Virus record (IMG/VR): IMGVR_UViG_3300013741_000003
DNA from: an uncultured virus (IMG/VR IMGVR_UViG_3300013741_000003)
Taxonomy: Duplodnaviria > Heunggongvirae > Uroviricota > Caudoviricetes
Length of the DNA: 64,000 nucleotides
Reading direction: 5' to 3' (one strand)
A program made the translations under genes and the position numbers. Below the pieces are notes generated by a model. That model had not been told where the DNA came from. It did not search any database and was given only the letters and a program-made list of their open reading frames with translations. Shown piece by piece: positions 13,436 to 57,514 of the stretch. Positions within the stretch are counted from its first letter, which is position 1. Each line of letters opens with the position of its first letter.

Positions 13436-14800
13436 TTAGTTTGAATATGGATCAGCACTTGCCCAAGAACTATTATCTGTTGCTGATGTTTGAACTGGAC
13501 TTTCGTATACAGGCTCATGGCTAGGGCTTACTGTCTGGTTGAATACATTATTATCTTCAACAACGCTTGCTTGATGATTAATAACTTCTTTTTCCACCTC
13601 TACAGGAGCTACAAAATTTTCTTGCTCTACTTCCTTATCAGGAACATATAGATAACCTGAAAGATCATTTGCTTTTCCTACATTAGAACAAAAATCAAAA
13701 GAGCTATCCAATGTAAATCCTGCTCCAAGAGCGGAGCCTACCTGATTTGTATGCCAGTTACCAATAAAGTTATCACCATCTTGAACCATTTCAAGGCTTG
13801 TAGAACTACCATTTTCAGACACAAATGAAACATTCAGTTTACCTAATTCATCAGGAACAATAATGTTTTTCTCACCTGTTTGTGTTCTTAACTCACATGA
13901 ATTAGTTGCTGTATCAAACTTCAATACACCGATTTCATTAGTTTTATCTACGTCATCAAAAAGTTTGACAGTGTAACCCTCTGGATTATGACGTACTTCA
14001 CTCGAAGCTACATTTTCAAAACCAGAAATATTATGGATATTATCATCAATGATACGTTGATTAATATTATCACCTAAATCATTAAAGTATAAGAACCACG
14101 CAAGAGTAGAATGTGGTCTAAACATTAATGCCAACTCTGGATTATAAAAAGCTAGTAGGTCATTTAGTGGATCAGTGTCAAAATTATTCCTCTGACTAAC
14201 TACATTTTTTTGAGAAACTTTAGTAATAATCTTCTGTTTTTGCTGTTCTTTTTCTTTCAGAACTTTAACTTTGTTTGAAAGATTTACTTCTTCTTGTTGC
14301 ATTTTGAAGTAAAAATCTTGTACATTTTTTACCTGATAATCAGAAACATCTTCCAAGAAGAACATAAACGATGAATGTTTAACTTCAACTTTAAAAGATT
14401 TACCACTTTGAGAAAGAATAGATACTAATGTTTTAAAATCTTTATCTTTAATAATGAAAGCTGTTTCATCATTTACCAATACTTGATCACAAGCAATAAC
14501 AATAGTATTAGCTACAATAAAGCTATTATTGATACCGTTTTCTGTAAAATCATTAAACGCATTCTTATATTGTGTTTTATCTTTTTCGATATCTTTAAAG
14601 GTTTCTTTAAGTAAGTCTCTATTAAGATTAAAAGACATTACCTTAGCCATACAGCTATATTCTAAAGAACTCTTGCTTAGTTTTAATGGGATTGCCACAG
14701 GAATTTTTGAAAGCAATGTTTTTCCTTGCTCATCAATAACACTTAACTTACCTGCTTTATTCACTTTACCATTATGTTTAATTACTACGGTTAGAGTCAT
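13436..14800 (-). CDS. hypothetical protein
   Basis: 454-aa ORF with low-complexity C-terminus. Confidence 0.75.
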   Translation of the reverse strand: MTLTVVIKHNGKVNKAGKLSVIDEQGKTLLSKIPVAIPLKLSKSSLEYSCMAKVMSFNLNRDLLKETFKDIEKDKTQYKNAFNDFTENGINNSFIVANTIVIACDQVLVNDETAFIIKDKDFKTLVSILSQSGKSFKVEVKHSSFMFFLEDVSDYQVKNVQDFYFKMQQEEVNLSNKVKVLKEKEQQKQKIITKVSQKNVVSQRNNFDTDPLNDLLAFYNPELALMFRPHSTLAWFLYFNDLGDNINQRIIDDNIHNISGFENVASSEVRHNPEGYTVKLFDDVDKTNEIGVLKFDTATNSCELRTQTGEKNIIVPDELGKLNVSFVSENGSSTSLEMVQDGDNFIGNWHTNQVGSALGAGFTLDSSFDFCSNVGKANDLSGYLYVPDKEVEQENFVAPVEVEKEVINHQASVVEDNNVFNQTVSPSHEPVYESPVQTSATDNSSWASADPYSN

Positions 14801-14887: not shown

Positions 14888-15127
14888 CTAAGCTCTCTCT
14901 GTTTTAATATTTCCACATTTATTTATTTGCTCAATTATTCTTTCTTGAGTTAATGGATTGCTTAGATCAAGCTTAACAATACCATCTTTATTAATTGTAT
15001 AAGTCCCTTGATTTTCTTTTAAAGCTTTAAACAGTCGTTGTTCATTATAACTTCTTGGGGAATCTTTTTTTGATAAAAACTTTTTTATTCGATGTAGAGT
15101 GATTTTCTTCATTTTAAAACCTCTCAT
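14888..15127 (-). CDS. small hypothetical protein ending in TAG
   Basis: ORF directly downstream of the RNA island; start likely MKKITL. Confidence 0.55.
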   Translation of the reverse strand: MRGFKMKKITLHRIKKFLSKKDSPRSYNEQRLFKALKENQGTYTINKDGIVKLDLSNPLTQERIIEQINKCGNIKTERA

Positions 15128-15136
15128 AGTTTGAGG

Positions 15137-15237
15137 TGGTGGTTGCCGCAGGATTTGAACCTGCCCTTAACAGCCTACACAATAGGGTATTGCTACCTGT
15201 TTTATCGCCTGTCATAGTGTCCAGCTATCCAACAACC
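15137..15237 (-). ncRNA. anticodon-less tRNA-like RNA with encoded CCA
   Basis: GGTTGTT/GGCAACC-A-CCA acceptor; GCAGG-TTCAAAT-CCTGC T-arm; ATAG/CTAT D-like arm; extended arm capped by GGTA-GCAA-TACC. Confidence 0.75.
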
Positions 15238-15346
15238 AATGGTCCGGGTTATAGTCATCCCCGGTTTCGCTTGTTCCAGACTAATGCCCCATGTTGGCAG
15301 GAGCTACACAAACATTTTTAAACATTTTAAAAAATCCTATTAGTTT

Positions 15347-15461
15347 ATAAAATTTTACGATTCGTCGTAGAGTGTGCTTTTCTTTGTAATCTTTTGTTCG
15401 CTTTTGTGATTACCAAATACTTGCCTCAGTCATTTACGATAGCGCGTTAACGCCAACTTAT
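15347..15461 (-). ncRNA. unknown structured RNA, copy 1
   Basis: homologous to 15500-15630 with compensatory stem changes. Confidence 0.65.
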
Positions 15462-15499
15462 TTTTATCTAACTATTAATTTATTTAAATATTCAAATTA

Positions 15500-15630
15500 G
15501 AGGAAGCTTCACGATTCGTCGCAAAATCCGTCAGGGCCAGTCCCTTTTCTCAGTCATTTTTTGTTCGCTTTATAATGACCTGATACTAAATAAACAAGAT
15601 TTTTTACACGATGGTATAACCAACTTCCTC
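15500..15630 (-). ncRNA. unknown structured RNA, copy 2
   Basis: GAGGAAG/CTTCCTC closing stem; GTCATT-[ATAAAGCGAACAAAA]-AATGAC hairpin; CGA-CGAA-TCG hairpin. Confidence 0.65.
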
Positions 15631-15648
15631 TTTTCTACTTCATTTTTA

Positions 15649-16236
15649 CCTTAAAGTCGTAGATGTTCCTTTAAGATATTTCAAGTTACAAGTGGTAGGG
15701 GCTAATTCTCCTACTTAACTGCCGTTTATGGAGACGCTTACGAGTTGCAAATTCGTTTTGCGGATAACAATATCAACAGCATCATGTCTGCTCAACCATA
15801 CCGTATTAGCTTACGGATTCACTTGGCTCTGAGAGCTTATATCACATATACCAGAAATAGTTACATATAATAAAGCTAACAGAAATCGGGAACAAGGAAC
15901 CACCCTATACTTCCCTAATAAATTTTTCAACCACGGCTTGAAGTGGGCCTTTATCTTGTGGCTATAGCTTATAGCATCTGGTGGTTAGCCATAGCTACGT
16001 TCTTCTCTTAGTTTTAAGCATTTGGAGATTGCTCGACGGCACTCGAATAAACACTCTAAACTAACTGTAACCATCTGACTAAGTTAACGGTGAAGGTTGT
16101 CACCTACTGGTTCAAGCTGCCAGTCAACATTCGCATTCCTTCTCGTCTTCAGCGAACTTATACCCGTCTGTCTTTTTGGAACTCAAACCAGACAGAAAAA
16201 TGAAGATATAACAGCATCAGTCTCACCTGTTATTCT
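15649..16236 (-). ncRNA. large ornate ncRNA candidate (~590 nt; ROOL-like in size and context, family unverified)
   Basis: no credible ORF, many hairpins, two 7-bp loop-loop complementarities, directly 3' of tRNA-Leu. Confidence 0.55.
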
Positions 16237-16244
16237 TTTGAGTT

Positions 16245-16329
16245 TGGTACTCCGGGTCGGACTCGAACCGACAAACCTTGCGGCGTTAGGACCTAAACCT
16301 AATGCGGTTACCAATTTCGCCACCGGAGC
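16245..16329 (-). tRNA. tRNA-Leu(TAG)
   Basis: full cloverleaf, TTAGG-TT-TAG-GT-CCTAA, long variable arm, ACCA end. Confidence 0.95.
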
Positions 16330-16384
16330 ATTGCGGAAAACACTGCCTATCTCTGATAGGGATGTATATTAGTCTTTTCCTATG

Positions 16385-16448
16385 ATTAGTTTATGTAGGG
16401 ACTTGAACCCCAGCGCTACTTAAAGCACTCCGTCACGCCCTAACCAAT
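16385..16448 (-). ncRNA. minimal or degenerate tRNA-like element
   Basis: TGGGG-TTCAAGT-CCCTA T-arm within ATTGGTT/AACTAAT stem; begins at predicted transcription start. Confidence 0.4.
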
Positions 16449-16454
16449 GAAAAC

Positions 16455-16483
16455 ATTATAGCTAAAACTTTTATGAAAAACAA
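16455..16483 (-). promoter_or_regulatory. sigma70-like promoter for the left half of the RNA island
   Basis: TTGTTT-N17-TATAAT. Confidence 0.65.
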
Positions 16484-16559
16484 CTCTTTTTTCTTTCTTT
16501 TTTTAATTATTATCATGAATTTAGGTGTTACAATACTTGTTATAGCTGGATATTTTTAT

Positions 16560-16889
16560 TTAATATATTTCTAATGGTTTTATTACTCTTGGATACATCA
16601 AAACAGTTATATTTTTCTCTATCGTTTTATTTATAAAATCTCTAACATCTTTATTTGATAGACTTAAAAGATGGACATAATTATCATACTTTTCTATTTT
16701 ATCGTCTTTTAATGTTATTATTTTCATATCATGATATGTATCTACATTATATCCAGTGATCATAAAATAAAACGTATCCTCTTTCTCATTAAAAAATGAA
16801 AAAGTAATAATTTCGCCATTCTTTTTATTTAATTCTTTTTTTACAATCTCTTTTTTACTTTCAAGCTCTAAAATATTTAAAATAGTCAT
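16560..16889 (-). CDS. hypothetical protein inside the RNA island
   Basis: 109-aa AT-rich ORF with AGGAG SD. Confidence 0.6.
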   Translation of the reverse strand: MTILNILELESKKEIVKKELNKKNGEIITFSFFNEKEDTFYFMITGYNVDTYHDMKIITLKDDKIEKYDNYVHLLSLSNKDVRDFINKTIEKNITVLMYPRVIKPLEIY

Positions 16890-16993
16890 ACACTCACTCT
16901 CCTTTTTTAGAATAAAACACTATTCTTATTAAAAAGTAAAATCTATTTTAATTTATAATGAAGGGAATTTTAAGTGAAATAAAGGGTAGAGGT

Positions 16994-17086
16994 GATTGTA
17001 AAAGCGTTGGATTCGAACCATTAATGCCTGATCAAGGGCAACACTCCCGTAGGTCTGGACCATCTTAACTTACAACTTTTACAATC
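16994..17086 (-). ncRNA. tRNA-like RNA with 11-bp terminal stem
   Basis: GATTGTAAAAG/CTTTTACAATC perfect stem, TGG-TTCGAAT-CCA T-loop, followed by ACCT. Confidence 0.55.
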
Positions 17087-17161
17087 TTTTTAGTGGGAGC
17101 TTCTGATCAGAAGCAGCTACGGGCATCCCACAAAACAACTGATTAACGTCTATGTATTTGT

Positions 17162-17193
17162 AAAATAAAACTCCTTTCCAATTAGAAAAGGAG
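17162..17193 (-). terminator. intrinsic terminator of large ncRNA
   Basis: CTCCTTT..AAAGGAG hairpin then TTTTATTTT. Confidence 0.7.
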
Positions 17194-17945
17194 CCGATAT
17201 TGCCTTCTACACCGGTTTGAAGACAACCTGCCTTTTCCTACTTCGCAATCCAGCCCTAATAGGCTAACAGGCTGGCGCTAAGCCTTCAGTCCGGCTAAGA
17301 CATCCTCTTTTCTTGTTATTCCATAGCGAGTAACCTTTCTATGGCAAGAGTGTCGATTTAAAGAAGCAAGACACTATACCTCCTTTTGAAAAGATGGGGA
17401 GTCTCACCCCAACTTTGTTATTGATTACGTCAAGCGCTATAGCAATCAACCTGCATTCAGATAATATTCGCTTATAACCTTTTATGCTACAGTTATAAGC
17501 TATACTCATTAATTTACACTTATAGTGAGTACCCTATAAGCGAGTGCTAGTTTAAAGAACAGCACTAATTCTTGAATAACTCCCGTCGAAACGACAGTAT
17601 CCCTATCATTTGCCCATAATGAATGATTATCTTTAAACAAGAATCCTTTTGGATCGAGCAAAGCGTACACATTCGGGCTATCAAGTTGGACGGCTGAGAA
17701 ACTTCACTTTGGAAAAGCTATCCCGCAGATATTTCTAACGCAAGGACCACAACTTAAATTTTGTGGCGTTCGAGGAAGTTTGAGGCTTTAAATATCTCAA
17801 ACACTCAGCGATTTCTCTCGTTTTTATAAAAATGCCCCTGATCGCAACATCAGGTATTTTTGATTAGTAAATCCAATTACTTTGGAAGAAATCTGATTTA
17901 CCTACATGCCAGATTCTAAAACTGGCCCCATCTAGACATTAGCTT
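17194..17945 (-). ncRNA. large ornate ncRNA candidate (~750 nt; GOLLD-like in size and context, family unverified)
   Basis: ORF-free and hairpin-dense, GTGAGA-loop hairpin, two TTTAAA-core long-range pairings; 5' boundary approximate. Confidence 0.55.
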
Positions 17946-18082
17946 TAAGTTTCCCGTTCCCGTCTATTTTATTTAGAAACGTAACTTTTTGTTTGCTGTT
18001 CCACCAGCTACCAGAACATTTAACTGGCAATTAGGTTGGAGTCATCGCTCCTTAGTCAGAAACTGAACACGCGAACGCATTC

Positions 18083-18175
18083 TTGTATCAGCATCAGGAT
18101 TTGAACCTGACTGGTGTAAGGTTTACGCTCCTGATTACTCGGAGAACGCCTCACTGGTTCCAACAACTGCTGATA
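18083..18175 (-). ncRNA. anticodon-less tRNA-like RNA
   Basis: ATCAGCA/TGCTGAT-A-CAA acceptor; TCAGG-TTCAAAT-CCTGA T-arm; extended GTGAGG/CCTTAC + CTCC/GGAG arm. Confidence 0.65.
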
Positions 18176-18189
18176 TTTTTTAATTTAAA

Positions 18190-18399
18190 ACTATTCAAGC
18201 TTTGTTAACATATAGGTAGTTTAGTCATCGTATCACGCAATAATACTTATAATCTTCTCAGCAGAGGCGAATCCGCGTCAATGAAGGGCTACCAGTTAAC
18301 TCTATCTCACGTATTTCGACAGAACATGCTGCTCTGCTAATCGCTTGACTCTAATCAGTTTACGAGACTGATGTTAAAACGAGGGTGCTCTTGAATAGC
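18190..18399 (-). ncRNA. unknown ~210-nt structured RNA
   Basis: GCTATTCAAG/CTTGAATAGT closing stem; nested TTAACAT/ATGTTAA, AGCAGAG/CTCTGCT and ATCAGT/ACTGAT helices. Confidence 0.55.
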
Positions 18400-18447
18400 T
18401 TTTTAATACCTTACTTCTTTTTGATAATAGTATTAGCTACTAATATC

Positions 18448-18593
18448 TGGTGTCGTTTCAGGAATCGAACCTGAGACTTGAAGAACTACTATCCGCGCTA
18501 TAACACTCAGCCAACTCTCCTTTCGGGACAGTGCAGGAATTAAACCTACGTTTTCGGACTACGCCTTCTGTTTTACCACTAAACTAATACGAC
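18448..18593 (-). ncRNA. double-tRNA: tRNA body whose anticodon loop is replaced by a circularly permuted second tRNA body
   Basis: outer D, anticodon stem, T and ACCA intact; the insert has T-arm, loop-closed acceptor and D-arm in permuted order. Confidence 0.8.
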
Positions 18594-18797
18594 ATTGTTT
18601 TGAGAGCTTATGATTATTCCTCTCTCGCCTTTAAACAAAACACCCACGAAACGCAGTATGCCTTATCCTAATCACTCGCCCTACGGCATCGCAGAGCGGT
18701 CAGGTTTTCTATTTTATTAAAGGAGGCTTCAAAGTTCTGCTCTTTACAGACAATGTAGTGGAATTTCATTACTACTCATTGCCGCCTCAAGAACTAC

Positions 18798-18826
18798 ATC
18801 TTACCAAAACCCAAACTCATAATCAA
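18798..18826 (-). promoter_or_regulatory. internal promoter of the RNA island
   Basis: TTGATT-N17-TAAGAT with extended TG; GTAGTTCTTGA immediately downstream, also seen after the TG-n-TATATT at ~19102. Confidence 0.55.
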
Positions 18827-18855
18827 CTACTTTTTTACTATTTTCTTATTTTTTA

Positions 18856-19048
18856 GGATGGCTGGCACTGATCTCCAGCTTGTCTATAACACCTGCTAGT
18901 TAACACCGGAGTCTCACCGGGGCGAAGATTTCACAGGAGCTTTATTGGGACAGTGCTGGATTACAACGTGCTTACTTAACCGATTACATCCAGCGATATC
19001 TACTTCCCATCAGGTCTTACACTTTCCCGTCAGTCCGGGACTTCATCC
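18856..19048 (-). ncRNA. manA-like structured RNA (193 nt)
   Basis: GGATG/CATCC closing stem; 5' CCCG-GACTGA-CGGG loop complementary to 3' GCTGG-AGATCAGTG-CCAGC loop; CCGG-TGAGACT-CCGG hairpin; family call from recall. Confidence 0.55.
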
Positions 19049-19172
19049 ACTTAATAATAAAAAGCTAGAGTTTTAACCAGTCTTCTTTGCTTCAAGAACT
19101 ACAATATACCAACTTCACTGCTTAAACCCCGGAAGTCACCCTAGATGTACCCCGGAAGTTAAATACATAATT

Positions 19173-19257
19173 TGGTGCTCCAAGAGGGACTTGAACCCTC
19201 ACACCTTTCGGTAACAGATTTTGAGTCTGCCGCGTCTACCGATTCCACCATCAGAGC
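19173..19257 (-). tRNA. tRNA-Leu(CAA)
   Basis: full cloverleaf, GCAGA-CT-CAA-AA-TCTGT, long variable arm, ACCA end. Confidence 0.95.
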
Positions 19258-19261
19258 AATA

Positions 19262-19411
19262 TGGCAGGAGTAGAGGGATCGAACCTCACTTGATAAATAA
19301 CATTATTGAGAGCGACTCAACATTGTTCTTTATTCATAGACCAAAGGATACCTACCTTCCACATTAACTTCACCAGCGCTAGCTAAGAAAATGTGTGCCT
19401 ATGCTTCTCCT
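19262..19411 (-). ncRNA. 150-nt anticodon-less tRNA-like RNA with encoded CCA
   Basis: AGGAGAA/TACTCCT-G-CCA acceptor; GAGG-TTCGATC-CCTC T-arm; two large inserted helical domains. Confidence 0.7.
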
Positions 19412-19416
19412 ATTCT

Positions 19417-19490
19417 TGGTGTCAATGGAGGGAATCGAACCCACATCCAGAGTTTTAGAGACTCCTGCTCTACCGTTAAGCTACAAAGAC
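19417..19490 (-). tRNA. amber suppressor tRNA (anticodon CTA)
   Basis: cloverleaf with GGAGT-CT-CTA-AA-ACTCT, normal D-arm, TTCGATT loop and ACCA; two T-T mismatches in acceptor, one in T-stem. Confidence 0.8.
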
Positions 19491-19503
19491 ACGTTTTACT
19501 TGT

Positions 19504-25931: not shown

Positions 25932-27026
25932 TTATCTGAATAAAATTTCAAAATAACCTTTATTATAATATTCTTCTTTCTCTTTTGTTAGATTGCCCCA
26001 ATTTTTTTCAACGTATTGAGCCTGAGAAATTACTTTATCCATAGGATCATTTTTATTTATAGCGTAGTCTAATATTGTATAAACAGGAAGTCCTATATTA
26101 TAATTATTTCCTACTTCATTGATTGGATCTATAGCTACTACATGCCTGAAGCTATTACCAATTTTAAACAATTCCCTTAGTTTATCATAATTTCCAGTCT
26201 CATAGTAATGTTTTATATCTGCATTTAGCGTATTAATTATTTCTATGTTTTCTTCATCTACTCTTTTTTCTTCTTTACTATTATATCCATATTGCTTATA
26301 TGCGTCATTCTTTTTCTTTAAATAATCTTTATCAGGGAAATAAATATCTTTATTAAATCCATTTTCAACTAATAACTTCCCTAAATTATCATATACATGC
26401 CTTTCAGTTTGTGCATTATAATCTGTTGAAATCATAAAGTAGGTAGACATTTGTTTTCTCATGTTAACATCATCGAATGTTTTTTTATATATTTTATCTT
26501 TTTCGTATACTTGAGATATTTTTTGATTCAATTCTGGATATTTATCATAATCAAACACTTCTTTTTCAGAATGATTTTTTGTAATGTTATTTAACTCACT
26601 ATATACTAATCCGGGATTGGCATACTGACTATTTAGAGATAGCATGGTTTTTAACATTATCCCACTATCTTTCTTAAAGTTTGAAGCTTTTTGAAAAGCT
26701 GGATTATCACCACCTTTATAGCCATACATATATTCGAATGTTAACAAATCTCTTTTGAAATCGGCATCAGAATAGGGAACCGTAGACATTTGCTCTTTAA
26801 AATAATTATAATTATCCAGTTTAGCATTATTTTCTACTTTATAGTTTATGGTCGAGTTGATATGGTGAATATTAGTCGCAGTAACAGCTACATCATATGC
26901 AGCAATAGAACTAATCACCATAGCAAAACCTATAGCCATTTTTTTTAGTTTGCTTCTTTTTCTTATATTTTGATTTAAAGTTTTAGATCGACTTTCAAAC
27001 TCTACTTTATTTTTGGTTTTTAGCAT
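25932..27026 (-). CDS. membrane-anchored paralog family A member
   Basis: basic N-terminus + TM helix; VPYSDADFKRDL and YYETGNYDKLRELFKIGN. Confidence 0.8.
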   Translation of the reverse strand: MLKTKNKVEFESRSKTLNQNIRKRSKLKKMAIGFAMVISSIAAYDVAVTATNIHHINSTINYKVENNAKLDNYNYFKEQMSTVPYSDADFKRDLLTFEYMYGYKGGDNPAFQKASNFKKDSGIMLKTMLSLNSQYANPGLVYSELNNITKNHSEKEVFDYDKYPELNQKISQVYEKDKIYKKTFDDVNMRKQMSTYFMISTDYNAQTERHVYDNLGKLLVENGFNKDIYFPDKDYLKKKNDAYKQYGYNSKEEKRVDEENIEIINTLNADIKHYYETGNYDKLRELFKIGNSFRHVVAIDPINEVGNNYNIGLPVYTILDYAINKNDPMDKVISQAQYVEKNWGNLTKEKEEYYNKGYFEILFR

Positions 27027-27081
27027 ATTATTTTACCTATTTTTTAAATAACTTAATATTCAATATTGCTATATTTTTTAC

Positions 27082-27091
27082 NNNNNNNNNN
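27082..27091. other. scaffold gap probably hiding another family A gene
   Basis: N run flanked by an MLKTK start and a duplicated intergenic spacer. Confidence 0.7.
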
Positions 27092-27161
27092 TTTTTTGTT
27101 TTTAACATATTATTTTACCTATTTTTTTAAATGATCTAAGATTTCAATATTGCTATATTTT

Positions 27162-28286
27162 TTACATAAACAATATATAATCATAACCCTCTTTGTAATA
27201 CTTTTCCTTTTCTGGTGTTAGATTTCCAAAATATTTTTCATAAAATTTTGCCTGATTTATTATTGGATTATCTTCTTCATTAACATCTTCTTCATCAACA
27301 TCTTTTTTATTCATCATATAATCTATAGTCATATAAATCGGAGTTCCTAAAACATAGTTACCTGCCATTTTTCTCACTGGATCTTCTACAGTAATATGAG
27401 CAAATGCATTTCCTATTTTAAATAACTCTTTTAGTTTATCATAATTTCCATTCTCATAATAAGTTTTTACTCTCTGATTTATTGAATTAACGACTTCATC
27501 ATTTTGCTTGTAAACTTTTTTTATTTCTGGACTATTATAATCATAATTCGTTTTCTTAATAACATCATTTATATTTTTTATATAACTCTTATCTATAAAA
27601 AAAGTTTGTCCATCAAATCCATTTTCAATTAATATTTGCTTTAAATTATCATACATCTTTTTGTCACTTTTATAATAAAAAGTATCATTTAAAATAAAAT
27701 TACTGTACACACTTTTCATTAATCTAACATCATTCAAATCTGCTTTATGTTTTGTATTTTTCTTATAAACTTCTTGGATTTTTTTATTAAACTCTGGATA
27801 CTTATTATTATCGAATACTTCTTTTTCAGAGTGATTTCTGGTTAATAATTCTAGTTCACTATAATATGCTATAGGATTATTTATCTTCATATTAACTGAC
27901 ATTATTCTATTTAAACTAACTCCAACCCCTTTATCAAACATAAATGCCTTTTGAAAAGCCGGATTATCACCCCCTTTATAACCATAAATATATTCAAAAG
28001 TTAACAGATCTCTTTTAAAATCAGCATCAGAATACGGAACAGCAGATATCATTTTTTTAAATGTGCTGTAATCATTTAATTTCGCATCATTTGCTACTTT
28101 ATAATCTACTATAAATGTTGTATGTTTTATATTGGCAGCAGTGATAGCTACATCATATGCAGCAATAGATCCAACAATCATAGCAAATCCCATAGCTATT
28201 GTTTTCAGTATACTTTTTTTCTTAAGTGTCTTATTCAAACTTCTAGATTTGGTTTCAAACTCTACTTTATTTTTTGTTTTTAACAT
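27162..28286 (-). CDS. membrane-anchored paralog family A member
   Basis: N-terminal half nearly identical to 25932-27026. Confidence 0.8.
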   Translation of the reverse strand: MLKTKNKVEFETKSRSLNKTLKKKSILKTIAMGFAMIVGSIAAYDVAITAANIKHTTFIVDYKVANDAKLNDYSTFKKMISAVPYSDADFKRDLLTFEYIYGYKGGDNPAFQKAFMFDKGVGVSLNRIMSVNMKINNPIAYYSELELLTRNHSEKEVFDNNKYPEFNKKIQEVYKKNTKHKADLNDVRLMKSVYSNFILNDTFYYKSDKKMYDNLKQILIENGFDGQTFFIDKSYIKNINDVIKKTNYDYNSPEIKKVYKQNDEVVNSINQRVKTYYENGNYDKLKELFKIGNAFAHITVEDPVRKMAGNYVLGTPIYMTIDYMMNKKDVDEEDVNEEDNPIINQAKFYEKYFGNLTPEKEKYYKEGYDYILFM

Positions 28287-54138: not shown

Positions 54139-55146
54139 TCAAAACTTAATTCCCAAATGATCATTATAATATTTATCTTTTTCTTTAGTTTCTGCTCCCC
54201 TTAAACCATCATATTTTTGACTTAACTGAACGATTTGATCAAAAGTGATATAGTTATTATATGTAGATATACTATCACCTCCAGAATATATATCACGATT
54301 TCTGTTTTCTAAAGGAATATCAATGAGTAATTGGCTAAAACTATGACCAATTTTAAATATTTCTCTTAGCTTTTTAGTTTCTCCATTTCTATAATATACT
54401 TTCATCTGCTCTATTTGCTTATTGTAATTACCAATAATTTTATTTTCGTAAAAGTCATTAGCTTGAGTACGATTTTTTATTTGTCTGTATTCTTTCCATA
54501 CGTTTTGATCTATAAAATACGTGCTTGGATCATATCCTTTTTCAGTTAATAGTTTTCCTAAATTATTAAAAATAACATTTCCAGCATATACACTACCAAA
54601 CTCTGAAGCATTAGAACTTAACATTAATACTGAATTTCTAAACTTATCTAAATCTTTTTTATCGTTTATTTTTAGATCTTCGTACAAATCTATTACTGAT
54701 TTCTTTTTCACTGCCTCACTTGCTGATAACCCCCTTGCATTATAAGCAATGCTTTCTAATGTTTTATTAGCATCAGCATATCTATATTTCATTTGTAGCA
54801 TACTATTTAATCCTTTATCCTCGCCAAACAAATGATTAAAAGTGACATTTTCATCTTGCATATACATATTTCCAAATAGTCTTAAATCTTCTTTAAATTG
54901 ACTATCTGTATACGGAACTTCATCTATTTTAGCCTTAAATGTTTTATAGTTTTCTAATTGACTATAATAGTTTGTTTTATATTCTATTGTGTTATTTACT
55001 TGTACTACTTGGCTTGAAACGACGGAAAGTTCCCATCCAGTAGTGAAAATAAAAGGAATCATAAAAGCTAATAGGATACTTTTCTTCAATCCTCTATTTA
55101 TTTTATGATTAGTTTTTGTTTTTATTTTATCTTTAGTTAGTATCAT
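54139..55146 (-). CDS. membrane-anchored paralog family A member
   Basis: VPYTDSQFKEDL, YYRNGETKKLREIFKIG. Confidence 0.78.
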   Translation of the reverse strand: MILTKDKIKTKTNHKINRGLKKSILLAFMIPFIFTTGWELSVVSSQVVQVNNTIEYKTNYYSQLENYKTFKAKIDEVPYTDSQFKEDLRLFGNMYMQDENVTFNHLFGEDKGLNSMLQMKYRYADANKTLESIAYNARGLSASEAVKKKSVIDLYEDLKINDKKDLDKFRNSVLMLSSNASEFGSVYAGNVIFNNLGKLLTEKGYDPSTYFIDQNVWKEYRQIKNRTQANDFYENKIIGNYNKQIEQMKVYYRNGETKKLREIFKIGHSFSQLLIDIPLENRNRDIYSGGDSISTYNNYITFDQIVQLSQKYDGLRGAETKEKDKYYNDHLGIKF

Positions 55147-55177
55147 TATGCTTTCTCTTTTATCTTTTATATTTTAT

Positions 55178-56260
55178 TTAAAACCAATAGAATAAATTCA
55201 TGTTTTCATAGTATTGTCTATTTTCTTTGTTTACTAAGCCTTGCATTTCACTGTATTTTAAAACAAGAGGGCTTAGATTTATATATCCACTTATGTGTCC
55301 AGAAAGACCTTTATTCATATTATTAAAATATAACCCTTTTCTTTCGAGCGTAGGAGCGTTTTCTATCATTACTTTACTGTAAGCATTACCTATTTTAAAA
55401 ACTTCTCTAAGTTTGTCATAATCTTTATTCTTGTAATAACTTAATAGGGTTTTCATGTTAGCTTCACCTATTCTCTTTTTTTCTTCATAAAATCTTTCCC
55501 TTGATTCTTTAGATTTTTCGAAATCCCTATTTTGATCATATATTTTTTCTTCCTCAAGGTTTTTACTTATTAAATTTGTTGGAACTGAATATAAATCAGC
55601 AGAAAATCCTTTACTTAGAGTATATTCTCTAATATTATTTAACTCATCTTTTATTAAAGGATAATTTATAACATGATTATTACTTCCCATCATAAATGTA
55701 GAAGATAATATTCTATTAAACTTTACCACGCCCCCATTTTTATCATTTAATAGTTCTTTATATATTCCTGCTTTTTTATAGGGGTTATAACCATTATTAT
55801 CATTTGGATTATTATCCGAATAATTCATAGAACTTGTTTCTTTTAAAAATTGTGGGAAAAACTCGTGCCTATCTAAATATTTTAATTTCATTTCAGTAAA
55901 ATTATAAAATCCTACTTCTTTTGTAGAAAATACCTTATCTGAAACTGCATTATTATTAACATATAAATATTCAAATAATGATAAATCTTTTTTGAAATCA
56001 TCTTCGGTATAAGGAACAGCTTCCATAGCTTTATAAAAGTTATTATAACTGTTTAAATTGTTATAATATTCTATTTTTTCTTTTACTAAATTCGATGTTT
56101 TAACAACATCAGAAGAAAGTATTACTGTATTACCCGCAACAAATAATCCACTAAAAATAGCAACGGCAAATAAAGCTTTCTTCATTTTTTTTAATGGTCT
56201 TTTATTATACAGCTTTTTTATTTTTGAACTATTTATTGTTTTATCTTTTGTTAATATCAT
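55178..56260 (-). CDS. membrane-anchored paralog family A member
   Basis: VPYTEDDFKKDL, YYKNKDYDKLREVFKIGN. Confidence 0.78.
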   Translation of the reverse strand: MILTKDKTINSSKIKKLYNKRPLKKMKKALFAVAIFSGLFVAGNTVILSSDVVKTSNLVKEKIEYYNNLNSYNNFYKAMEAVPYTEDDFKKDLSLFEYLYVNNNAVSDKVFSTKEVGFYNFTEMKLKYLDRHEFFPQFLKETSSMNYSDNNPNDNNGYNPYKKAGIYKELLNDKNGGVVKFNRILSSTFMMGSNNHVINYPLIKDELNNIREYTLSKGFSADLYSVPTNLISKNLEEEKIYDQNRDFEKSKESRERFYEEKKRIGEANMKTLLSYYKNKDYDKLREVFKIGNAYSKVMIENAPTLERKGLYFNNMNKGLSGHISGYINLSPLVLKYSEMQGLVNKENRQYYENMNLFYWF

Positions 56261-56374
56261 CTCAGCCTCTAATATTTTAGTAAATCATAAGATTTTCTTT
56301 TATAGTATTTTACTATAATTTCCTTTCATTCCTAAATAAACTTCTTTAGTTATATTTAGTATCATAATTATCCT

Positions 56375-57514
56375 TTAATAGTTTAACATTAACCATTTTT
56401 CCCCATCATAATATTTTTTTGATTCTTGGTTATAAGTTCCTTTTATTTTTGCCACCTTTCTGGCATCATCTATATAATATTTTTTAAATGATTCGCTATC
56501 TTCATCATATTTATCTTTTTCTATTAAACCTAAATCTTTCATTTTCTCTTCAACTATATATGATGGCCTTACTCCATATGTTTCAAAATTATTTTTATTT
56601 ACAATATCATCAAAAATAAGTACAGAAAATCCATTTAATACTTTAAATATTCTTCTAATTTTTTCATAATTTCCATTTTTATAATATTCCTTTATTTTGT
56701 TTAAAGACTCTGTTTTTTCTTTATAAAAATCATAGTCAAGCTTATCTAGAGCTTTCATATATTCACCTTCATTTTTATAAGATTCTTTTCCACCCATTAC
56801 TTTAGCAAGAGCCTTCATATATTCCTTTCGTTTATCTTTTCCTATATACAATGCATCTTCTGATAATCCCTCTTCTTTTATTAATTTTCTTATATTCTCA
56901 TAGATTGTATTATCAATTAAAACAGCATCTCCCATAGACGGGTGATCACCATTAAATCTAAATAAAGCTGACCTATAAGTGGATTTTATTTTTTCATTTT
57001 CAGAGGAATAAAACGAAGTAGGTTTAAAAAAATTAGAATATTTTTTATTGCCAAAAGCTGTAATGTCAATATTTTCATTTTTAAATTTATTTGATTCATT
57101 AATCATTGATAAAAACGTTTTATCAATATTTTCATTTTTTAGAACCATTCTATCTATCATAAAATTATATAATTCATATTTCCCATATTTTACTTGCATC
57201 AGTGGAGTATTATTGTTTTCAAATATGTATCCAAATAGCTTCAAATCTCTTTGAAACTGCTGTTCTGTGTAAGGAGTATTATTTATTCTTGTTTTAAAAT
57301 TATCATAGTTGTTCATTCCTGCGAAGTTATCTATACTAGCATCTATTCTGTTAGAAATATTTATACTATTGGTTAATGTAACAGAAACTTCCCAACTAAA
57401 TATAGCGCTAAATAAAATAGCCCCACCAATTATACTTTTTTTGATAAAACTGCTTTTTTTAAATTTGGTTTTATGCTTTTCGTTGAGCACTGTTTTATTT
57501 TTAGTTAGTATCAT
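56375..57514 (-). CDS. membrane-anchored paralog family A member
   Basis: TPYTEQQFQRDL, YYKNGNYEKIRRIFK. Confidence 0.78.
   Translation of the reverse strand: MILTKNKTVLNEKHKTKFKKSSFIKKSIIGGAILFSAIFSWEVSVTLTNSINISNRIDASIDNFAGMNNYDNFKTRINNTPYTEQQFQRDLKLFGYIFENNNTPLMQVKYGKYELYNFMIDRMVLKNENIDKTFLSMINESNKFKNENIDITAFGNKKYSNFFKPTSFYSSENEKIKSTYRSALFRFNGDHPSMGDAVLIDNTIYENIRKLIKEEGLSEDALYIGKDKRKEYMKALAKVMGGKESYKNEGEYMKALDKLDYDFYKEKTESLNKIKEYYKNGNYEKIRRIFKVLNGFSVLIFDDIVNKNNFETYGVRPSYIVEEKMKDLGLIEKDKYDEDSESFKKYYIDDARKVAKIKGTYNQESKKYYDGEKWLMLNY

What the first reader, a model, noticed from the sequence alone, without database searches (positions are those of the whole stretch)
17194..17945. ~750-nt ornate RNA with two matched TTTAAA-core long-range pairings
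Seen (minus-strand RNA): hairpin loop CTTTAAAT (17356-17363) is complementary to hairpin loop ATTTAAAG (17786-17793). Hairpin loop TCTTTAAAC (17550-17558) is complementary to GTTTAAAGA (17630-17638). The region is ORF-free, hairpin-dense and ends at a terminator. Established: GOLLD and ROOL are giant RNAs found beside phage tRNA clusters and can form multimers via kissing loops. Inference: a GOLLD-class or new giant RNA; the palindromic TTTAAA core could also mediate intermolecular assembly. AT-rich matches have a non-trivial chance background.
Basis: partly seen in the sequence, partly recalled or inferred. Interest (0 to 1): 0.72.

Follow-up and report, generated by a model that had tools for sequence, protein, structure and literature searches.

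The report
Pseudoknot-chain giant RNA on a megaplasmid
This is very probably the gene for a large, uncatalogued, heavily knotted non-coding RNA sitting among tRNA genes of a giant gut-bacterial plasmid; it resembles the cage-forming RNAs GOLLD and ROOL in size and setting but is not one of them, and the two loop-to-loop contacts first proposed are not kept in a relative.

Summary
The four TTTAAA motifs and both complementarities are real, but only loop A is a cleanly exposed hairpin loop, and such 8-nt matches are common by chance (914 of 1000 shuffles hold two or more). The RNA itself looks real: about 790 nt, minus strand, folding z -4.1, ending at a terminator. A second, 190-nt shorter allele from two metagenome contigs keeps 11 of 11 changed pairs in hand-chosen helices, three by two-sided change (an unbiased test was not significant). 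That allele lacks loop C, alters B and mismatches A-D, so the 8-9 bp kisses are not conserved. Instead C and D are duplicated H-type pseudoknots whose two helices covary, and the 3' half is a chain of up to six pseudoknot candidates (0 of 300 shuffles). At most 6-bp AU-rich contacts remain possible. No Rfam family matches; GOLLD, ROOL and tmRNA models fail. The DNA is probably a clade-2 pMEGA Enterobacteriaceae megaplasmid, not a phage (inferred). Expression, 5' end and function are untested; only two alleles were found.

The parts
17170..17960 (-). Large structured non-coding RNA, long allele (5' end uncertain; may start as far up as about 18084, behind a tRNA-like element)
   Evidence: folding z -4.14; allele differences confined to 17959-17203, 0 of 220 upstream and 0 of 40 downstream; terminator
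17944..17951 (-). Segment E, complementary to the loop of hairpin F; the only long-range 8-nt complement kept in both alleles (invariant, so no covariation)
17837..17926 (-). Three 5' hairpins (17926-17908, 17902-17866, 17854-17837)
   Evidence: one-sided pair-keeping changes at 17866 (G002) and 17842 (short allele)
17778..17802 (-).
17746..17767 (-).
17612..17678 (-). Long irregular stem-loop with two two-sided changes (17676/17614, 17651/17646); motif B (17638-17630) lies in its internal loop and pairs locally with 17663-17659
17573..17604 (-). UUCG-capped hairpin, rebuilt with different sequence in the short allele
   Evidence: -8.5 and -14.7 kcal/mol
17543..17573 (-).
17502..17542 (-). Pseudoknot C2 (9 bp + 7 bp, loops 1/0/8); absent from the short allele
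17381..17570 (-). 190-nt optional block present in the window and G002, absent in L123/L124; starts with a diverged duplicate of the D module
   Evidence: alignment score 43, 0 of 1000 shuffles; repeat D14, spacing 194
17349..17385 (-).
17321..17344 (-). Hairpin after D, counterpart of the first stem of C2
17237..17275 (-). Pseudoknot E (7 bp + 6 bp); all four allele changes keep pairs, one two-sided
17194..17226 (-). Pseudoknot F (8 bp + 5 bp); its loop holds the palindrome ACCGGT (17216-17211)
17169..17195 (-). Intrinsic terminator-like hairpin with U tract
18085..18173 (-). Upstream tRNA-like element (acceptor stem, T arm, long central stem), not called as tRNA; possible processing site
   Evidence: z -3.03; not listed by ARAGORN or Rfam
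16998..17082 (-). Downstream tRNA-like element with long closing stem and T loop
   Evidence: (17 bits, below cut-off)

Best explanation
The stretch is a stand-alone gene for a 600-800 nt non-coding RNA of an uncatalogued family, in a tRNA island of a giant, AT-rich extrachromosomal element that is probably a clade-2 pMEGA megaplasmid of Enterobacteriaceae. It is made from the minus strand, probably cut out of the island's long tRNA transcript and ended by its own terminator. The 5' half is a multi-hairpin domain; the 3' half is a chain of H-type pseudoknots that grows or shrinks by whole modules (C + C2 duplicate D + its hairpin). In C and D the 5' half of the 'loop' pairs with the purine run just before the stem; the TTAAAY remainder is the third pseudoknot loop, free to dock in a minor groove or to make a 6-bp contact with an RTTTAA loop (A, B or F). 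Most likely way of working: a compact, nuclease-resistant, abundant structural RNA that folds, and perhaps self-assembles, without coding, as GOLLD and ROOL do, serving the element's translation-support and counter-defence island as scaffold or decoy. Shown here: sequence, strand bias, two alleles, pair-keeping changes, module duplication, no family match. Inferred: transcription, processing, pseudoknot formation, host element, assembly and role.
For: Folding z -4.14 long, -3.58 short. Six non-overlapping H-type candidates at -17 kcal/mol or better against a shuffle mean of 0.36, 0 of 300; short allele 3, 0 of 300; D, E and F are found in each allele separately. Helix S2 of C against D: 2 two-sided changes, 18 of 18 cells paired. 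Helix S1 of C, D, short D: 15 of 15 pairs with different sequences; shuffled flanks do so in 3.8%, 43% and 3.5%. 16 helices: 11 of 11 changed pairs kept, 3 two-sided; random placement of the 30 substitutions breaks none in 0.14%. Changed pairs kept on the minus strand 12 of 15 and 14 of 23, on the plus strand 5 of 10 and 2 of 13. Element: flank-protein cluster on contigs up to 1.37 Mb; shufflon pilin, chemotaxis, MutS, ankyrin, RNA-ligase and TROVE genes and only one tail-collar domain among 90 scanned proteins; 34 tRNAs in 340 kb; the pMEGA preprint describes these traits and says the strongest RNA peaks are intergenic, two over 1 kb in clade 2. ROOL occurs on a Lactobacillus megaplasmid.
Against: Only two independent alleles; no distant relatives found. 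The 16 helices were chosen after seeing both alleles and the -17 cut-off, so those P values are optimistic. The unbiased test is not significant (12 kept against 9.9 expected; 14 against 14.0); the count of structure pairs on two sequences cannot beat its shuffles (251 of 500; 48 of 500). The plus strand also gives 2 pseudoknot candidates (2 of 300). Competing helices exist around D and E. Sliding 120-nt z-scores are weak between 17800 and 17620. No expression data. No promoter-like site near the 5' end. Identity with pMEGA was not checked by alignment. No evidence at all for multimers.
Confidence: 0.58

Rival explanations
1. One reading: in the long allele A-D (8 bp) and B-C (9 bp) are true kissing helices, within one chain or between chains through the palindromic TTTAAA core, and they outcompete the local S1 helices.
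For: B-C duplex -9.0 kcal/mol against -6.7 for S1 of C. The last base of the third loops (TTAAAT in D, TTAAAC in C) matches the first base of the partners (ATTTAA in A, GTTTAA in B), which looks like covariation between duplicated modules. B is altered exactly in the allele that lacks C. The 6-bp A-D core is invariant.
Against: B lies in a segment with 25 changes in 89 nt, so its change says little. B prefers D (-7.0) over A's claim on D (-4.5), and A pairs better with 17664-17659 in both alleles (-5.5, -5.8). S1 covaries in three copies.
Confidence: 0.18
2. Not one RNA: several smaller RNAs or processed spacers of the tRNA-island transcript (a 5' hairpin cluster, a pseudoknot cassette, a 3' stabilising end).
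For: No helix joins the 5' and 3' halves in both alleles; 190 nt can be dropped; the island holds many tRNA-like pieces.
Against: No tRNA-like ends or internal terminator inside 17960-17195 that coincide with a domain border; divergence rises and falls across the whole unit while flanks are identical.
Confidence: 0.12
3. A tmRNA-like or tmRNA-derived RNA: pseudoknot D plays PK1, a short frame ending ...VLAGLKA-stop (stop 17280-17278) plays the tag, E and F play the later pseudoknots, with a tRNA-like partner acting in trans.
For: E. coli PK1 has the same 5+6 bp layout with an A-rich third loop; the frame after D is open to the same stop in both alleles and its one change (17320) is silent; a 10-nt match to the tmRNA 5' region lies upstream.
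Against: No T arm, no CCA acceptor end in the RNA; ARAGORN and RF00023 find nothing at the locus; alignment to E. coli tmRNA no better than shuffles (72 and 135 of 300); a 22-codon open frame is common by chance.
Confidence: 0.07
4. A decayed or neutral intergenic stretch whose folding is a by-product of local duplications and composition.
For: Unbiased pair test not significant; neighbouring island segments also have raised GC.
Against: z -4.1 and -3.6; two-sided changes; pseudoknot excess; neighbouring 19170-18180 has z -1.1 and no pseudoknot candidate.
Confidence: 0.05

Closest known systems
GOLLD RNA (Rfam RF02032; cryo-EM 14-mer, PMC12286853)
   Same: Size (about 800 nt), no coding, place in a tRNA island of a mobile element, modular length variation, candidate loop contacts.
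   Different: No match to the universally conserved 3' domain model; architecture dominated by tandem H-type pseudoknots; probably plasmid-borne in Enterobacteriaceae; multimers untested.
ROOL RNA (Rfam RF03087; cryo-EM hexamer/octamer)
   Same: Size of the short allele (about 600 nt); ROOL also occurs on a megaplasmid (pMP118); pseudoknots.
   Different: No model match where a true ROOL scores 130 bits; pairwise alignment to that ROOL at shuffle level (221 and 263 of 300).
tmRNA (RF00023)
   Same: A row of H-type pseudoknots; pseudoknot D has the layout of PK1; short open frame behind it.
   Different: No tRNA-like domain, no model or ARAGORN hit, no sequence similarity.
ARRPOF RNA (plasmid RNA with four pseudoknots, dimer; as described in PMC12990946)
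   Same: Plasmid-borne structured RNA with several pseudoknots.
   Different: 255 nt, tied to replication in Fusobacterium; no Rfam match here; not compared by sequence.
pMEGA megaplasmids of Enterobacteriaceae, clade 2 (10.1101/2025.09.30.679422)
   Same: Size class 1.33-1.37 Mb, low GC, tRNA blocks, shufflon pilins, mostly unknown genes, provirus calls inside.
   Different: The preprint's main text names no non-coding RNA (0 hits for six terms); identity not checked by alignment.

Membership tests
GOLLD | Universally conserved 3' domain (RF02032, 416 positions) | tested here: not met
   No hit at E<=10 on either allele; best in all of G002 8.1 bits elsewhere. No GOLLD positive control was at hand.
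GOLLD | Lies beside tRNA genes in a phage or prophage | tested here: inconclusive
   tRNA island yes; element probably a megaplasmid.
GOLLD | Variable 5' domain P1-P12 with its bridges | not tested
   Not covered by the Rfam model; the GOLLD alignment in the paper's archive was not held; compared by eye with env-38 only.
GOLLD / ROOL | RNA-only multimeric cage | not testable with these tools
   Needs mass photometry or cryo-EM.
ROOL | Match to RF03087 (P1-P19, pseudoknot P10) | tested here: not met
   No hit; positive control 130.4 bits; pairwise alignment at shuffle level.
tmRNA | tRNA-like domain with T arm and CCA end | tested here: not met
tmRNA | Tag reading frame behind PK1 | tested here: inconclusive
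   Open frame to 17278 in both alleles, one silent change; chance level not excluded.
tmRNA | Series of pseudoknots | tested here: met
   (predicted, not probed); the finder recovers PK1 only in E. coli tmRNA.
pMEGA clade 2 (host element) | Megabase size, low GC, tRNA blocks, shufflon pilins, no virion core | tested here: met
   90 proteins of 210 aa or more from 13 of 17 G002 stretches plus 21 window proteins were scanned.
pMEGA clade 2 (host element) | Nucleotide identity to curated pMEGA genomes; T4SS, relaxase, Rep | not testable with these tools
   No pMEGA record answered in plasmids or E. coli genomes; only 340 kb of the element is held.

The most novel reading that the evidence does not exclude
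A new class of giant ornate RNA, the first from Enterobacteriaceae megaplasmids, built from duplicable pseudoknot modules whose exposed TTAAAY loops dock on RTTTAA loops of the same or another chain, so that adding a module (C with its matched B) adds a binding valency and changes the size of an RNA-only assembly; being carried by E. coli-hosted plasmids it would make the function of such RNAs testable in a tractable host.
Probability: 0.25. Interest if true: 0.85.

Novelty: new variant of a known kind. Interest (0 to 1): 0.62.

Why it matters
The function of giant ornate RNAs (GOLLD, ROOL) is an open question, partly because their hosts are awkward. A separate family on megaplasmids of E. coli and its kin, with natural long and short alleles that differ by one duplicated pseudoknot block, would offer a direct genetic and structural test, and would name one of the unexplained highly expressed intergenic regions reported for these plasmids. 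A 600-800 nt RNA with five or six tandem pseudoknots outside tmRNA is itself unusual.

Tried and rejected
Homologue searches that found nothing beyond near-copies: blastn in phages, plasmids, complete E. coli genomes; four motif scans of viral contigs (1 locus, the near-copy; 95 loci, 80 listed and examined, none similar by nhmmer, all held loci again by blastn; 2 loci, 1 near-copy, 1 chance; 13 loci, 1 near-copy, 12 chance, the best look-alike L129 lies inside a coding gene); flank-protein scans of viral contigs and species genomes; tblastn in plasmids and phages. A model of the C/D module found no further copy in 442,560 bases held (best other hit E 0.2). Moco riboswitch hit on the short allele (26 bits, cut-off 36) rejected: below cut-off, overlaps the terminator, no downstream operon logic. 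Group I intron, RNase P and permuted tmRNA considered by eye from recalled motifs and rejected; none scored in Rfam. The CAAAAG hairpin seen in GOLLD and ROOL occurs twice in the long allele but neither copy is kept in the short allele. The MFE hairpin 17609-17591 rejected in favour of the UUCG hairpin. Stop-codon recoding: coding cover hardly changes with TAG or TGA read through. Script slips: three helices mis-indexed, the C row, three UUCG rows (the fold energies there stand); the sliding scan used 30 shuffles although its header says 40. Expression could not be examined.

Full report
Observation. The stretch 17960-17170 folds at z -4.14 on the minus strand and -2.19 on the plus strand (20 shuffles each) and ends at the best terminator-like hairpin of the island. 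No reading frame is conserved. But only A is a plainly open loop; B, C and D are partly paired locally in the nested ensemble. Long-range perfect 8-mers are common in this composition: 8 found, mean 4.2 in shuffles, 914 of 1000 shuffles hold two or more.

Setting. The window is 30% G+C and full of unknown genes; 14950-19500 is a GC-raised, nearly ORF-free island with tRNA-Leu(TAG), tRNA-Leu(CAA), a CTA-anticodon tRNA and several tRNA-like pieces. It is a near-copy of a 341,648-bp record classed as provirus (G002). The 454-aa protein 2.4 kb downstream belongs to a cluster of 95 members on contigs up to 1.37 Mb. G002 bears 34 tRNAs, shufflon pilin, chemotaxis, MutS, ankyrin, RNA-ligase and TROVE genes and one tail-collar domain, no capsid or terminase among the 90 proteins scanned. 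This fits the clade-2 pMEGA megaplasmids of Enterobacteriaceae (10.1101/2025.09.30.679422; I read the abstract, parts 1-2 of 3 of the results, sections 12 and 28 and term passages; supplements not seen, they may locate the intergenic peaks). That text says geNomad calls proviruses inside these plasmids, names no non-coding RNA and reports that the most extreme RNA peaks are intergenic, two over 1 kb in clade 2. That the window is pMEGA, and that this locus is one of those peaks, are inferences.

Relatives. Only two alleles were found. G002 differs from the window at 1 of 831 bases. Two metagenome contigs, L123 and L124, carry a short allele, 641 against 831 nt, lacking 17570-17381. Differences are confined to the RNA: 0 of 220 upstream, 11 of 300, 25 of 89, 10 of 191, 0 of 40 downstream. 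All other searches were empty (listed under Tried and rejected).

Is structure kept? In 16 helices taken from folds of the window but chosen after I had seen both alleles, 11 of 11 changed pairs are kept, 3 by change on both sides; random placement of the 30 substitutions in the aligned segments breaks none in 0.14% of 20,000 trials (the indel-rich segment 17611-17571 and B were left out of that count). The unbiased version, all pairs above 0.5 probability in one allele tested on the other, gives 12 of 15 kept (9.9 expected) and 14 of 23 (14.0 expected), against 5 of 10 and 2 of 13 on the plus strand. So the strand is supported and selection on structure is likely but not proven.

The short allele lacks C, reads GTTAAAAGA at B and CATTAAAT at D with A unchanged; the A-D duplex falls from -4.5 to -1.3 kcal/mol. 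The only long-range 8-mer kept in both alleles is another one, 17951-17944 with 17758-17751. C and D are duplicated modules (score 43, 0 of 1000 shuffles). A pseudoknot finder of my own, run on each allele alone, reads both as H-type pseudoknots: the purine run before the stem pairs with the 5' half of the loop. The stem differs by two two-sided changes between C and D, and the new helix is fully paired in C, D and short D with three different sequences. What is left of the loops is TTAAAC(T) in C and TTAAAT(C) in D. These could still pair over 6 bp with GTTTAA of B and ATTTAA of A or F; the C/T against G/A match is suggestive, but whether a short third loop can hold a helix is doubtful, and A has a better partner in both alleles at 17664-17659.

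Pseudoknot chain. The same finder gives six non-overlapping candidates in the long allele (C, C2, 17450-17405, D, E, F; 0 of 300 shuffles reach six), three in the short allele (0 of 300), two on the plus strand (2 of 300); the cut-off was set after seeing the list. In E all four allele changes keep pairs, in F the one change does. As a control the finder recovers PK1 of E. coli tmRNA and no other. Competing helices exist for D and E.

Comparison. Rfam 15 gives no family on either allele at E up to 10 beyond sub-threshold noise. GOLLD, ROOL and tmRNA models fail on G002 at this locus; a ROOL from plasmid pMP118 scores 130 bits and does not align to this RNA. From PMC12286853 I read the abstract, sections 6-8, all of supplement 1 and part 1 of 79 of supplement 4: GOLLD is defined by a conserved 3' region, both RNAs lie near tRNA islands and form cages through kissing loops and A-minor contacts. 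From PMC12990946 and 10.64898/2026.07.01.735769 I saw term passages. It works like these RNAs in setting and size, and fails membership of both. tmRNA likeness is partial (rival 3).

Novelty. Nine literature searches found no description; three motifs were absent from the searchable supplements of PMC10690425 and PMC8040213, whose largest files could not be read, so a listing among those candidates is not excluded. The library lacks most subscription papers. The scan's own index has nothing on this DNA or element; other genomes hold unrelated large RNAs with loop contacts (unchecked).

Verdict. A probably real, uncatalogued giant RNA (about 0.85 that it is a structured RNA gene; 0.58 for the whole best explanation). 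The striking TTTAAA symmetry is mostly explained by module duplication plus local pseudoknots; the full 8-9 bp kisses are unlikely to be conserved architecture. Interest 0.62: a new ornate-RNA family in a tractable host group, held back by two alleles and no expression data.

Noticed in passing
window 15330-16240 (-): A second ORF-poor stretch behind tRNA-Leu(TAG), folding z -2.55, one 120-nt window at z -5.1 and two pseudoknot candidates; possibly another large RNA; 15 allele differences not analysed.
   Followed up: partly
window 18085-18173, 16998-17082, 18532-18587, about 18455-18510, 15135-15200, 16390-16450, 19262-19395 (-): Several tRNA-like elements with T loops that ARAGORN and Rfam do not call; with a TROVE (Ro60) gene on the element they may include Y-RNA-like molecules (recalled analogy).
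   Followed up: partly
L011:8035-9690 (-), L012:12822-13955 (-): TROVE-domain protein and T4 Rnl1-type RNA ligase on the same element: an RNA repair set.
   Followed up: no
window 19417-19490 (-); L018:14814-14888: tRNAs with CTA anticodon (possible amber suppressors) although the element reads table 11 and TAG is a rare stop.
   Followed up: partly
L001:5896-7634 (window 19119-19126); L010:15521-17185: IscB gene with HEARO RNA inserted in the island of G002 but not in the window; a second copy elsewhere; L124 has a few extra bases near 19155.
   Followed up: no
window 16248-16329 against L123/L124: tRNA-Leu(TAG) differs at about 12 positions between alleles while the flanks are near-identical, in line with the reported tRNA body diversification.
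   Followed up: no
window 13436-14800 (-): 454-aa protein of no Pfam family with 58 relatives at the 50% cluster level, ending in a conserved DPYSN motif; a possible marker of related giant elements.
   Followed up: partly
L010:8997-9136 (-): sroH RNA above cut-off (90.6 bits), an enterobacterial small RNA family, supporting the host guess.
   Followed up: no
window 17720-17714 and 17921-17913 (-): Hairpin loops with short palindromes (AGCT in both alleles; TTTTAAAA in the short allele) that could self-pair between chains.
   Followed up: no
window 25932-28286, 54139-57514 (-): Tandem paralogue families of 335-379 aa unknown proteins with N-terminal hydrophobic stretches.
   Followed up: no
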